A DNA stretch of 43,597 bases from a virus (taxonomy: Duplodnaviria > Heunggongvirae > Uroviricota > Caudoviricetes): the IMG/VR virus record IMGVR_UViG_2778261529_000002, positions 1 through 43,597 of that record. One strand, written 5' to 3'. Positions 6,233-6,739 of the stretch are shown in pieces. The translations under genes and the position numbers were made by a program. Position 1 is the stretch's first letter; the number at the start of each line of letters is the position of its first letter. A model generated the notes under the pieces. It was given only the letters and a program-made list of their open reading frames with translations, was not told the origin of the DNA and did no database searches.

Positions 6233-6739
6233 TTAAATTGCGTGAATAGCGTGACGAGGGAAGGGGAGAGTTACTGGTGCAAAGGGTATATCGTCGTCAA
6301 AATCCATCGGAGGTTCGTTGTGTTGTGCTGGTGATGATTGCTGCTGTGGCTTCTGTGATTGCCTGCTGGCTGCTTGTTGTTTGCTGTCGCCAATGCCGCC
6401 AAGCATTTGCATCACGCCATTAATTCCGACATGAACCTCGGTTGTGTAACGGTCTTGCCCTGACTGGTCTTTCCACTTTCTGGTTCTCAGCATTCCCTCG
6501 AAATAAATCTGATCACCTTTTTTCACATACTGCCCCACGACCTCAGCCAGTTTCCCGGATACAGCAACACGATGCCATTCAGTCAATTCCTTTTGCTCGC
6601 CAGTATTTTTATCTCGCCATTGTTCTGACGTGGCTATTGTCAGGTTAGCGAACGCTGTTCCTGATGGTGAGTATCGAACTTCCGGGTCTTGTCCTACCCG
6701 ACCAAGGATAATCACCTTATTTGCGCCTCTGCTTGCCAT
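6233..6739 (-). CDS. ssb: Single-stranded DNA-binding protein (SSB) with a 15-aa extension after the DDDIPF tip
   Basis: OB-fold N-terminal region and Gly/Gln-rich linker ending [10 protein letters not shown] typical of SSB, then [15 protein letters not shown] before the stop. Confidence 0.85.

What the first reader, a model, noticed from the sequence alone, without database searches (positions are those of the whole stretch)
6233..6739. Phage SSB whose conserved acidic tip is buried under a 15-residue extension
Bacterial and phage SSBs end in ...DDDIPF, and the free C-terminal Phe is what partner proteins bind. Here the ORF reads through DDDIPF and adds [15 protein letters not shown] before the stop. 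This is either a recent stop-codon loss or a deliberate change in partner binding, which could matter for hijacking or escaping host SSB-interacting proteins.
Basis: partly seen in the sequence, partly recalled or inferred. Interest (0 to 1): 0.45.

Follow-up and report, generated by a model that had tools for sequence, protein, structure and literature searches.

The report
Conserved extra tail on mobile-element SSBs
This prophage's single-stranded-DNA-binding protein carries a 15-residue tail beyond the usual acidic tip; the tail is not an accident but a conserved, undescribed peptide shared by many phage and plasmid replication proteins, and its binding partner is still unknown.

Summary
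ORF 6233-6739 (- strand) is an intact 168-aa SSB. Its last 13 pre-extension residues ([13 protein letters not shown]) are identical to the E. coli SSB C-terminus, followed by [15 protein letters not shown].

The "recent stop-codon loss" reading is wrong. Of the 120 closest homologues, 111 carry the same 15-residue extension. It is 82% pairwise identical, against 33% for the adjacent linker and 89% for the OB core, with many synonymous codon changes.

The same tip-plus-extension peptide (14-15 residues after PF) ends unrelated proteins:
- classical SSBs
- Sak4-associated SSB-2
- the rV5 gp209 family
- T1-like SSBs
- a T7 gp4-like primase-helicase
- IncN and IncT conjugative-plasmid SSBs

These elements share only a gamma-proteobacterial host. 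The close relatives ending at IPF (Sf6, Huey) are alleles split by an HNH homing endonuclease inserted exactly at IPF|AP. Related HNH genes abut the extension in rV5, T1-like and Seunavirus phages, which suggests how it spreads.

The tail is predicted to be disordered. The partner is unknown. A host-factor docking motif that replaces free-carboxylate tip binding is the best reading, and it is inferred, not shown. I found no description in the searchable literature or PDB.

The parts
6233..6739 (-). ssb gene (168 aa plus TAA stop) of an HK75-type lambdoid recombination module
   Evidence: ORF list. Pfam PF00436 3e-36 and phrog_44 7e-66. 98.9% nt identity to phage HK75 over the 801-bp query (window 6100-6900). 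Annotated as ssb (WP_000168274.1) in a 99.9% identical E. coli prophage.
6401..6721 (-). OB-fold ssDNA-binding and oligomerisation core (residues 7-113)
   Evidence: Pfam match over residues 7-104. AlphaFold2 strands 8-113 with block-mean pLDDT of about 63-87 (mostly 70-87).
6320..6400 (-). Gln/Ser/Pro-rich disordered linker (residues 114-140)
   Evidence: pLDDT below 40. Poorly conserved: 33% mean pairwise identity among homologues.
6281..6319 (-). Acidic SSB tip [13 protein letters not shown] (residues 141-153), here internal rather than C-terminal
   Evidence: Identical to E. coli SSB residues 166-178. Tip codons show pN/pS of 0.05, although the DD.PF codons were fixed by the search pattern.
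6236..6280 (-). 15-residue extension [15 protein letters not shown] (residues 154-168), the feature in question
   Evidence: Present in 111 of 120 homologues at 82% mean pairwise identity. pN/pS is 0.35; ten different DNA versions encode this exact peptide. Predicted disordered. The same motif ends unrelated proteins.
6280..6281 (-). Phe153|Ala154 codon boundary: the point where an HNH homing-endonuclease gene is inserted in sister alleles (Sf6, Huey). This window carries no insert.
   Evidence: Sf6 and Huey SSBs end ...DD(SD/E)IPF*. Their HNH ORFs end ...[18 protein letters not shown].
6226..6235 (-). ssb stop codon TAA (6233-6235) and AGGAG ribosome-binding site of abc2 (6226-6230); also a module junction
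   Evidence: Sequence read directly. Sixteen different downstream sequences follow the same extension in other loci.
6740..7447 (-). Rad52/22-type single-strand annealing protein. Its stop codon abuts the ssb ATG, consistent with translational coupling.
   Evidence: Pfam PF04098 5e-26 and phrog_1097 1.6e-129. Coordinates.
5926..6219 (-). Abc2 anti-RecBCD protein, the third gene of the module
   Evidence: Pfam PF11043 2.7e-62.

Best explanation
The gene is an intact SSB of the early-left (pL) recombination module of a lambdoid prophage, with gene order Rad52-like annealase, SSB, Abc2. Its disordered tail ends in a two-part peptide: a copy of the host SSB acidic tip, then a conserved 14-15-residue hydrophobic/basic extension of pattern [AS]-P-[VI]-[TG]-L-[PQ]-[FY]-x-[RK]-x-x-[ILVM]-[HY]-x-[ILVMF]-COOH.

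Shown here:
- The extension is old and under purifying selection at the protein level.
- It always sits at the extreme C-terminus.
- It was seen on proteins of phages, prophages and conjugative plasmids of gamma-proteobacteria; the E. coli chromosomal SSB (PDB sequence) ends at the tip, and the eight genuine genome hits look like prophages or a plasmid. Other chromosomal ssb genes were not surveyed.
- It is attached to at least five unrelated protein families that act on ssDNA.
- HNH homing-endonuclease genes sit directly against it.

Inferred:
- The carriers share only the host, so the tip-plus-extension most likely works as a short linear docking motif for a host component.
- Making the tip internal removes the free Phe carboxylate that canonical SSB-interacting proteins bind (established knowledge, not tested here). 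The extension would therefore weaken ordinary tip binding and add new contacts. The net effect would be to re-programme which host protein is recruited to, or kept away from, ssDNA coated by the mobile element's own SSB.
- The homing endonucleases, which home to the conserved tip-coding DNA, are the likely vehicle that copied the 45-nt piece onto different genes ending in DD[DE][IT]PF.

The identity of the partner is not established.
For: Conservation:
- 111 of 120 closest homologues carry the extension. It is 82% pairwise identical, against 33% for the linker and 89% for the OB core.
- Extension pN/pS is 0.35. The half not constrained by my search pattern gives 0.42, against 0.58 for the linker, and several synonymous codons occur at most extension positions.

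Portability:
- The same tail ends classical SSBs (this window; Cronobacter JK004; Vibrio 1.243.O and BT-1011).
- It ends phrog_743 SSB-2 next to Sak4 (Citrobacter Omnitron).
- It ends the phrog_4477 family (rV5 gp209, BIS47_17, alia gp036).
- It ends T1-like SSBs (ACG-M12 gp33, ESh4).
- It ends primase-helicases of Klebsiella phage DP and Salmonella phage KE23.
- It ends IncN and IncT plasmid SSBs.

No common element-encoded partner:
- The gene upstream of extension-bearing SSBs falls into 15 clusters, including Rad52-like, Sak4, RecT-like and RdgC-like proteins. The last two labels are by eye, not scanned.
- IncN plasmids place the gene among ardK, ardB and ardR.

Context and structure:
- E. 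coli SSB ends at the tip.
- The eight genuine genome hits lie beside integrase-, annealase- or methylase-like genes or on a plasmid.
- The tail is predicted disordered with no intramolecular docking.

HNH link:
- In Sf6 and Huey the HNH gene lies between tip and extension.
- rV5 differs from Bas52 by one indel of about 640 bp, starting right after the Phe codon and containing the extension plus an HNH gene.
- ESh4, ACG-M12 and KE23 have HNH start codons inside the extension codons.
- These HNH proteins are homologous, with E-values from 1e-14 to 1e-67; rV5 gp208 shares only the N-terminal domain.
Against: - No binding partner was identified or tested. 'Host docking motif' is an argument by elimination.
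- Phages with the split allele (Sf6, Huey) and relatives ending at a bare tip (Bas52_0087, ATCEA85) exist. The extension is therefore unlikely to be essential for growth; no growth data were examined here.
- Within lambdoid prophages the extension DNA is itself nearly invariant (49 of 68 copies identical). Recent horizontal spread therefore contributes to the apparent conservation.
- My pattern-based sample fixed positions 1-7 of the extension. Only the homology-based sample and positions 8-15 are unbiased.
- The motif could still serve different partners in different elements, for example the phage polymerase in rV5-like phages.
Confidence: 0.55

Rival explanations
1. Recent stop-codon loss, read-through or assembly error: the extension is a meaningless translated 3' UTR in this one copy.
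For: A 15-codon read-through is unremarkable by length alone. A few 90%-identical relatives end at IPF (P0008-P0013).
Against: 111 of 120 homologues share the extension at fixed length, with 82% identity and synonymous variation. It occurs in 308 complete E. coli genomes and in several sequenced phages. The IPF-ending relatives are homing-endonuclease-split alleles that still keep the extension codons downstream.
Confidence: 0.01
2. Pure cap ('stealth SSB'): the only role of the extension is to block the Phe carboxylate, so that host SSB-interacting nucleases and helicases (ExoI, RecJ, RecQ, RecO and others) are not recruited to the element's ssDNA. The sequence of the cap is unimportant.
For: Canonical partners need the free C-terminal Phe (established knowledge). 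Mobile elements would benefit from not recruiting ExoI or RecQ. The extension was seen only on mobile-element proteins.
Against: A cap would not need 15 residues of conserved sequence and fixed length. The acidic tip is co-conserved with the extension even on proteins that are not SSBs and have no reason to carry a masked tip, namely the primase-helicases ending DDDTPF-APIGLQYA(K/N)HAIYV(I/L). Simply deleting the tip would achieve the same result.
Confidence: 0.12
3. T7-like logic: the tail docks an element-encoded partner, either the phage DNA polymerase (as T7 gp2.5 and gp4 tails bind gp5) or the neighbouring annealase (as the HK620 SSB tail binds Sak4).
For: In Mydovirus and Seunavirus phages both the SSB-like protein and the primase-helicase carry the tail, and the polymerase gene is adjacent. 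The HK620 SSB needs its last six residues to stimulate Sak4 (PMC5928155). The ssb gene here abuts the annealase gene, consistent with translational coupling.
Against: No DNA polymerase gene lies near ssb in the annotated prophage replication region or in the IncN and T1-like regions examined; that these elements use the host polymerase is my own knowledge. The upstream partner gene varies among 15 clusters, and plasmid copies have no annealase. Bas52 proteins of the same families function with bare tips.
Confidence: 0.15
4. The first half of the extension, P-[VI]-[TG]-L-[PQ]-[FY], is a beta-sliding-clamp-binding hexapeptide. The tail would tether the host clamp to ssDNA coated by the element's SSB.
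For: The pattern resembles known E. coli hexapeptide clamp motifs: QLSLPL (strong binder) and QTSMAF (epsilon subunit) (PMC4478557). Pol IV QLVLGL is from my own knowledge. Hydrophobic residues fall at positions 2, 4 and 6 and Pro at position 5. The motif lies in a disordered terminus, as clamp motifs do.
Against: Position 1 is an invariant Pro, not Gln, and Q182A is the weak-binding allele of epsilon. Eight further conserved residues and the co-conserved acidic tip are left unexplained. rV5-like phages encode their own polymerase; whether it needs the host clamp was not examined.
Confidence: 0.1
5. C-terminal degradation or remodelling tag: the basic-then-nonpolar end (...RHAIHAI, ...KHAIYVI, ...PALLMCM) is read by ClpX, FtsH or Lon, limiting the level or lifetime of the foreign SSB.
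For: The position is fixed at the very C-terminus, the last residues are nonpolar and a basic residue precedes them. This resembles MuA-type ClpX tags and nonpolar C-terminal degrons (my own knowledge, not tested).
Against: It does not explain the conserved APxGLxY half, nor why the acidic tip travels with the extension onto non-SSB proteins. No protease data exist.
Confidence: 0.08
6. Selfish by-product: the 45-nt piece is merely part of, or a scar of, an HNH homing-endonuclease cassette (or a lambdoid module 'boundary sequence'). It would be conserved at the DNA level for the endonuclease and not for SSB function.
For: HNH genes abut or overlap the extension in Sf6, Huey, rV5, ESh4, ACG-M12 and KE23, and rV5 versus Bas52 is a single extension-plus-HNH indel. 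Extension DNA is nearly invariant within lambdoids, and downstream modules vary.
Against: Most carriers have no endonuclease nearby: this window, HK75, IncN plasmids, BIS47, alia and the Vibrio phages. Across distant carriers the peptide is kept while codons differ freely. The aromatic residue at position 7 is kept even where the Tyr-Gly 'ATG' used by the endonuclease is absent. Homing endonucleases target conserved sequence; they do not create it.
Confidence: 0.1

Closest known systems
E. coli SSB C-terminal tip (SSB-Ct, ...[13 protein letters not shown]) and its interactome (ExoI, RecQ, PriA, chi, RecO, DnaG and others)
   Same: OB-fold tetramer-type SSB with a disordered linker. The 13 residues [13 protein letters not shown] are identical to the host protein.
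   Different: The tip is internal: 15 more conserved residues follow, so the alpha-carboxylate of the Phe used by canonical partners is absent. The extension was not seen on the E. coli chromosomal SSB.
Bacteriophage T7 gp2.5 (SSB) and gp4 (primase-helicase) acidic C-terminal tails that both bind the T7 polymerase (my own knowledge)
   Same: A shared C-terminal peptide on the SSB-like protein and on the primase-helicase of the same phage group (Mydovirus and Seunavirus). Both tails are disordered and acidic.
   Different: T7 tails end in an aromatic residue that is itself the key contact. Here the chain ends in Ile, Leu or Met after a hydrophobic/basic stretch. The same tail also occurs on plasmid and prophage SSBs with no polymerase gene in the regions examined.
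HK620 SSB (HkaK, 'SSB-2'), whose last six residues NDYPPF recruit the cognate annealase Sak4 (PMC5928155)
   Same: A phage Rec-module SSB whose C-terminal tail mediates a specific protein contact. The Omnitron protein matches phrog_743 and sits next to a Sak4-like gene, as SSB-2 does in HK620 (my assignment); it carries the extension.
   Different: HK620's tail ends at the tip-like motif. No extension has been described.
'SSB-1' of HK75-type lambdoid recombination modules (Genome Res 2025, PMC12315714)
   Same: This gene appears to be a member (my assignment): same gene order and 98.9% nt identity to HK75 over the 801-bp query (window 6100-6900).
   Different: That paper states that the Sf6 and ES18 Rec-module SSBs, which it names SSB-1, have not been studied experimentally. 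It does not mention the extension in the passages I read.
Leading-region SSBs of conjugative plasmids such as F/pED208 (PMC8406263)
   Same: Mobile-element SSBs thought to coat incoming ssDNA. IncN and IncT plasmid SSBs carry the same or a variant extension.
   Different: E. coli plasmid SSB genes matched only the tip-coding part of the query, not the extension. That these are F-type plasmids is my inference from their size. No paper I found discusses an extension.
Free-standing HNH homing endonucleases that insert into or next to conserved phage genes (my own knowledge of T4-type seg/mob elements)
   Same: An HNH gene sits precisely at a highly conserved coding sequence and splits the host gene in Sf6 and Huey. 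A presence/absence polymorphism between close relatives is seen in rV5 versus Bas52.
   Different: Here the endonuclease is linked to a 45-nt coding piece that also occurs alone, and the association spans unrelated target genes. Homing activity was not tested.

Membership tests
Bacterial-type SSB (Pfam PF00436) | N-terminal OB-fold ssDNA-binding domain | tested here: met
   PF00436 3e-36 over residues 7-104. The AlphaFold2 model shows an OB barrel over residues 8-113.
Bacterial-type SSB (Pfam PF00436) | Intrinsically disordered Gly/Gln/Pro-rich linker after the core | tested here: met
   Residues 114-168 have pLDDT below 40. Linker identity among homologues is low, at 33%.
Bacterial-type SSB (Pfam PF00436) | Acidic tip ...DDDIPF at the extreme C-terminus with a free Phe carboxylate | tested here: not met
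   The motif is present and identical to the host's, but 15 residues follow it.
Bacterial-type SSB (Pfam PF00436) | Homotetramer that binds ssDNA and complements ssb mutants | not testable with these tools
   Needs biochemistry or genetics.
HK75-type lambdoid Rec module (SSB-1 + annealase + Abc2) | Gene order annealase-ssb-abc2 in the pL operon, with close identity to HK75 | tested here: met
   Rad52-like protein at 6740-7447, SSB at 6233-6739 and Abc2 at 5926-6219. 98.9% identity to HK75. Module type as named in PMC12315714.
Beta-clamp-binding hexapeptide motif | Gln at position 1 | tested here: not met
   Position 1 is Pro in 111 of 111 extensions. Q182A weakens clamp binding in epsilon (PMC4478557).
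Beta-clamp-binding hexapeptide motif | Hydrophobic residues at positions 2, 4 and 6 within a disordered segment | tested here: met
   Val/Ile, Leu and Phe/Tyr at extension positions 3, 5 and 7. The region is predicted disordered.
Beta-clamp-binding hexapeptide motif | Physical binding to DnaN | not testable with these tools
T7-type acidic replisome tails (gp2.5/gp4) | The same tail on the SSB and the primase-helicase of one phage | tested here: met
   Two tail matches per genome in BIS47 and GAP31. BIS47_17 and the primase-helicases of phages DP and KE23 carry it. This does not apply to the prophage in this window, where no primase-helicase of this kind is annotated among the replication genes.
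T7-type acidic replisome tails (gp2.5/gp4) | C-terminal aromatic residue as the terminal contact | tested here: not met
   The chain ends in Ile or Leu in 111 of 111 homologues. Other carriers end in Ile, Leu, Met, Phe, Val or Cys.
Homing-endonuclease-split gene | An endonuclease ORF interrupting the gene | tested here: not met
   There is no insert in this window; abc2 follows 13 nt after the stop. The feature is met in the sister alleles of Sf6 and Huey.

The most novel reading that the evidence does not exclude
The tip-plus-extension is a mobile protein-interaction module. It would convert the universal SSB tip into a specific docking site, or trap, for one host factor such as the clamp, a nuclease or helicase, or host SSB itself. 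Phages and conjugative plasmids would use it to take over or shield their ssDNA. A family of HNH homing endonucleases that home to the tip-coding DNA would copy it from gene to gene. This would be homing-driven spread of a short linear motif among unrelated replication proteins.
Probability: 0.3. Interest if true: 0.8.

Novelty: new variant of a known kind. Interest (0 to 1): 0.6.

Why it matters
The free C-terminal Phe of SSB is treated as the universal handle by which more than a dozen genome-maintenance proteins find ssDNA. Here a large, conserved class of phage and plasmid SSBs, and even primase-helicases, deliberately bury that handle under a second conserved peptide. About 6% of complete E. 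coli genomes carry such a gene.

If the peptide redirects or blocks host partners, it is a general take-over or protection device of mobile elements. That would bear on recombineering (SSB-annealase portability), on conjugation and SOS control, and on defence systems that sense foreign SSBs.

The tight link with HNH homing endonucleases offers a concrete mechanism by which a short interaction motif could move between unrelated genes. Everything needed for a direct test already exists: peptides, HK75, Sf6 and pKM101 genetics, and natural alleles with and without the extension.

Tried and rejected
1. Literature. Full-text searches for LPFPRH, PIGLQY and IPFAP found nothing relevant. Keyword searches found the HK620 SSB tail, lambdoid Rec modules, DRT10 and plasmid SSB translocation, none of which describes the extension.

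2. PDB. No chain contains the extension; only the tip matches. rV5 gp209 has no solved relative.

3. Self-docking. An AlphaFold2 monomer built from a 31-sequence alignment leaves residues 114-168 unstructured (pLDDT 25-38) and shows no docking on the OB core. This is weak evidence only. Multi-chain prediction with host proteins was not possible under the tool restrictions.

4. ExoI lead. The DRT10 preprint links an SSB-like trigger with an FDDDIPF motif (Bas52_0087) to host SbcB. I retrieved the gene and found that it ends at a bare tip without the extension. That work therefore says nothing about the extension. Expression of the protein alone does not activate DRT10.

5. The neighbouring annealase as universal partner. 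Rejected, because upstream genes fall into 15 clusters and plasmid copies have none.

6. Type IV secretion signal. Considered because plasmid SSBs are translocated. Rejected, because most carriers are phages.

7. Extension derived from the C-terminus of the HNH protein by deletion. Rejected as the general origin, because the motif occurs 5' of the HNH gene in rV5-, T1-like and Seunavirus phages and without any HNH in plasmids and Vibrio phages.

8. The representative-library search was noisy, with many frameshifted metagenome ORFs. It gave only a rough census: 51 representatives end at D.PF, 5 have the tip plus 14-16 residues, and 8 have other post-tip extensions.
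Full report
**1. What is in the window**

The ORF at 6233-6739 (- strand, 168 aa) translates to a typical SSB and ends ...[31 protein letters not shown], with TAA at 6233-6235. Pfam PF00436 matches residues 7-104 at 3e-36. An AlphaFold2 model built from 31 homologues gives a confident OB barrel for residues 7-113 and an unstructured tail for residues 114-168, with pLDDT 25-38.

The gene sits between a Rad52/22-type annealase (6740-7447), whose stop abuts the ssb ATG, and abc2 (5926-6219), whose AGGAG lies 3 nt after the ssb stop. This is the HK75-type recombination module of the pL operon. The 801-bp region is 98.9% identical to phage HK75, 98.5-98.6% to mEpX2 and mEp235, and 99.9% to a prophage of E. 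coli AST215, where it is annotated as ssb.

The 13 residues before the extension are identical to the C-terminus of E. coli SSB, whose chain ends at IPF.

**2. It is not a stop-codon accident**

Among the 120 best homologues in the 5.8-billion-protein collection, 111 have a 15-residue extension of the same pattern. Seven end at IPF and two are truncated or frameshifted. The named hits come from Salmonella, Klebsiella, Kluyvera, Citrobacter, Enterobacter, Pluralibacter, Phytobacter and Escherichia, at 66-92% identity.

| Region | Mean pairwise identity |
|---|---|
| Extension (15 aa) | 82% |
| Linker (15 aa upstream of the tip) | 33% |
| First 100 residues (OB core) | 89% |

In 80 distinct DNA versions recovered from viral contigs, the extension has pN/pS 0.35. 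The last eight codons, which my search pattern did not constrain, give 0.42. The linker gives 0.58. Several synonymous codons are used at most extension positions. Ten different DNA sequences encode exactly [15 protein letters not shown]. A full-length match to the 98-nt 3' end occurs in 308 of 5426 complete E. coli genomes.

**3. The relatives that end at IPF are split alleles**

In Sf6, Huey and Bas106-type phages an HNH endonuclease gene of 155-159 aa is inserted exactly after the Phe codon. The SSB then ends ...NFDD(E/SD)IPF*. The HNH ORF runs in frame into the old 3' end and itself ends ...[22 protein letters not shown]. The GenBank note for Sf6 gp26 already remarks on 14 residues shared with an "E. 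coli SSB". In mEpX2 and mEp235 the SSB is intact with the extension, and a DnaQ-like exonuclease gene lies between ssb and abc2.

**4. The extension is a portable C-terminal peptide**

A 22-residue tail query against 50,697 phage records gave 247 records with a match. Reading the genes shows the same tail, D-D-[DE]-[IT]-P-F followed by [AS]P[VI][GT]L[PQ][FY]x[KR]xx[ILVM][HY]x[ILVMF], on many proteins:

- Classical SSBs of Cronobacter JK004, Vibrio 1.243.O and Vibrio BT-1011.
- The phrog_743 SSB next to a Sak4-type ATPase in Citrobacter phage Omnitron.
- The phrog_4477 family: rV5 gp209, Klebsiella BIS47_17 and phi92-like alia gp036.
- T1-like SSBs: ACG-M12 gp33 and ESh4.
- An unclassified 155-aa protein (L053).
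- The T7 gp4-like primase-helicases of Klebsiella phage DP (...DDDTPFAPIGLQYAKHAIYVI) and Salmonella phage KE23 (...DDDTPFAPIGLQYANHAIYVL).

Conjugative plasmids carry it too. IncN pTR3 and pKOR-b08d SSBs end ...[23 protein letters not shown] and lie among ardK, ardB and ardR. IncT Rts1 has a variant. In total 120 plasmid records matched, 99 of them conjugative.

A 14-residue class, APIGLQYPALL.[CAV]M, occurs in Vibrio, Pseudoalteromonas, Glaciecola and Oceanisphaera genomes. Those loci lie next to integrase-, annealase-, methylase- or RdgC-like genes, identified by eye rather than by formal annotation.

In an unbiased sample of 150 SSB cluster representatives, 51 end at a D.PF tip, 5 have the tip plus 14-16 residues, and 8 have other post-tip extensions.

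**5. A homing-endonuclease connection**

Bas52_0087 is the rV5 gp209 homologue identified as a DRT10 trigger in a 2026 preprint. It ends at a bare tip (...SFDDDIPF*), whereas rV5 gp209 continues with APVGLQYGKSRIHAL.

The two genomes differ there by one insertion of about 640 bp. It starts immediately after the Phe codon and contains the extension, the stop codon and the endonuclease gene gp208. The gp208 ATG is formed by the Tyr-Gly codons of the extension. The same overlap is seen in T1-like ESh4. In ACG-M12 and KE23 the HNH start also lies inside the extension codons, and in KE23 the gene carrying the tail is the primase-helicase.

These endonucleases and Sf6 gp26 are homologous, with E-values from 1e-14 to 1e-67. 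rV5 gp208 shares only the N-terminal zinc-finger domain.

One protein family therefore shows three states:

| State | Examples |
|---|---|
| Tip only | Bas52 |
| Tip + extension | BIS47, alia |
| Tip + extension + HNH | rV5 |

The Bas52 primase-helicase likewise ends ...EDDETPF*. I infer that these endonucleases home to the conserved tip-coding DNA and carry, or co-convert, the 45-nt piece. That would explain how the same peptide came to end unrelated genes. Homing itself was not tested.

**6. What it most likely does**

Shown: the tail is disordered, C-terminal, selected at the protein level, seen here only on mobile-element proteins, and independent of the fold it is attached to.

The elements that carry it share no common partner gene. 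Upstream genes fall into 15 clusters, including Rad52-like, Sak4, RecT-like and RdgC-like proteins. IncN copies have none. No polymerase gene was seen near ssb in the lambdoid, T1-like or IncN regions examined.

What they do share is a gamma-proteobacterial host whose own SSB ends in the same tip. I therefore infer a short linear motif that docks a host component, at about 0.55 confidence.

Canonical partners bind the Phe carboxylate (established knowledge). Making the tip internal should weaken ordinary tip contacts, while the alternating hydrophobic residues (positions 3, 5, 7, 12 and 15) and the basic residue at position 9 add new ones.

A pure cap is unlikely, because the acidic tip is co-conserved with the extension even on primase-helicases. 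A degron alone does not explain the first half of the extension. A clamp-binding hexapeptide is a possible sub-case: PVTLPF can be compared with QLSLPL and QTSMAF. However, the invariant Pro replaces the Gln that matters for clamp binding.

An element-encoded partner remains possible for the large virulent phages, by analogy with the T7 polymerase or with Sak4 binding of the HK620 SSB tail. Phages with the split allele (Sf6, Huey) and proteins ending at a bare tip (Bas52_0087, ATCEA85) exist, so the extension is unlikely to be essential.

**7. Comparison with what is known**

The protein is a member of the bacterial-type SSB family in fold and linker. It fails the family's hallmark of a tip at the extreme C-terminus.

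The lambdoid "SSB-1" proteins are described in the literature as not studied experimentally (PMC12315714). In the passages I read, the DRT10 preprint mentions the FDDDIPF motif only as a C-terminal tip. I found no paper and no PDB entry containing the extension.

The searchable library is incomplete, so "undescribed" carries that caveat. I rate it a new variant of a known kind, namely an SSB C-terminal interaction tail.

**8. Verdict**

"Recent stop loss" is refuted. "Altered partner binding" is plausible but unproven. The finding widens into a conserved, mobile C-terminal peptide of phage and plasmid ssDNA proteins that is linked to HNH homing endonucleases. Interest 0.6.

Noticed in passing
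window 6280|6281 (sister alleles: L132 1634-2596, L131 1634-2578): In Sf6, Huey and Bas106-type phages an HNH endonuclease gene is inserted exactly at the IPF|AP junction of this ssb allele. The SSB then ends at a bare tip, and the HNH protein inherits the 14-residue [14 protein letters not shown] end.
   Followed up: yes
L007 2400-3300 versus L152 47090-47340: rV5 and Bas52 (RudolfGeigy) differ by one indel of about 640 bp that begins right after the Phe codon of the SSB-like gene. It holds the extension, the stop codon and the endonuclease gp208. The endonuclease ATG is made by the Tyr-Gly codons of the extension. The DRT10 trigger Bas52_0087 therefore has a bare tip.
   Followed up: yes
L010 491-2566; L153 1-1566; L152 37613-39691: T7 gp4-like primase-helicases of Vequintavirinae end either in a bare SSB-like tip (Bas52 ...EDDETPF*) or in the tip plus the extension (DP and KE23). 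In KE23 an HNH gene starts inside the extension codons.
   Followed up: partly
L146 2005-2538; L147 5536-6069; L148 3485-4072: SSBs of IncN plasmids (next to ardK, ardB, ardR and an SprT-like gene) and of IncT Rts1 carry the same or a variant extension. E. coli plasmid SSB genes matched only the tip-coding part of the query.
   Followed up: partly
L149 1410-2060; L150 1371-2027; L004 3299-3997: The annealases next to SSBs in T1-like phages and in ATCEA85 themselves end in short acidic-plus-Phe tails (...QQIDTF, ...SITDFE, ...PIEEDF), reminiscent of SSB and T7-type tips.
   Followed up: no
window 6233-6235 and downstream; other loci: The ssb stop codon is a module junction. The identical extension is followed by at least 16 different downstream sequences, including abc2, a DnaQ-like 3'-5' exonuclease as in mEpX2 (L133 1637-2185), and others.
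   Followed up: partly
L135 2622-3761; L139 4100-5245; five IMG/VR loci (cluster of L014): In marine gamma-proteobacterial prophages the extension-bearing SSB lies next to a protein of about 380-410 aa that looks RdgC-like. This was identified by eye from the N-terminal sequence and was not scanned.
   Followed up: no
window 16424-16579: Two adjacent tRNA genes (Asn-GTT and Thr-TGT) lie inside the prophage, downstream of the replication and nin region.
   Followed up: no
window about 3182-3798 and 5542-5754 (from L001 coordinates minus 2901): In the 99.9% identical AST215 prophage, PGAP marks three pseudogenes here: a hypothetical gene with an internal stop, a truncated HumD-like translesion-polymerase fragment, and a truncated DUF551 gene. 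The early-left region is therefore partly decayed, although the ssb module is intact.
   Followed up: no
proteins P0135, P0148, P0177, P0200, P0228, P0237, P0241, P0244: Other SSB cluster representatives have different, shorter or longer post-tip extensions, for example ...[12 protein letters not shown] and ...DDDIPFAQVPYLAGI. Extending the tip may therefore be a wider phenomenon than the 14-15-residue class.
   Followed up: no
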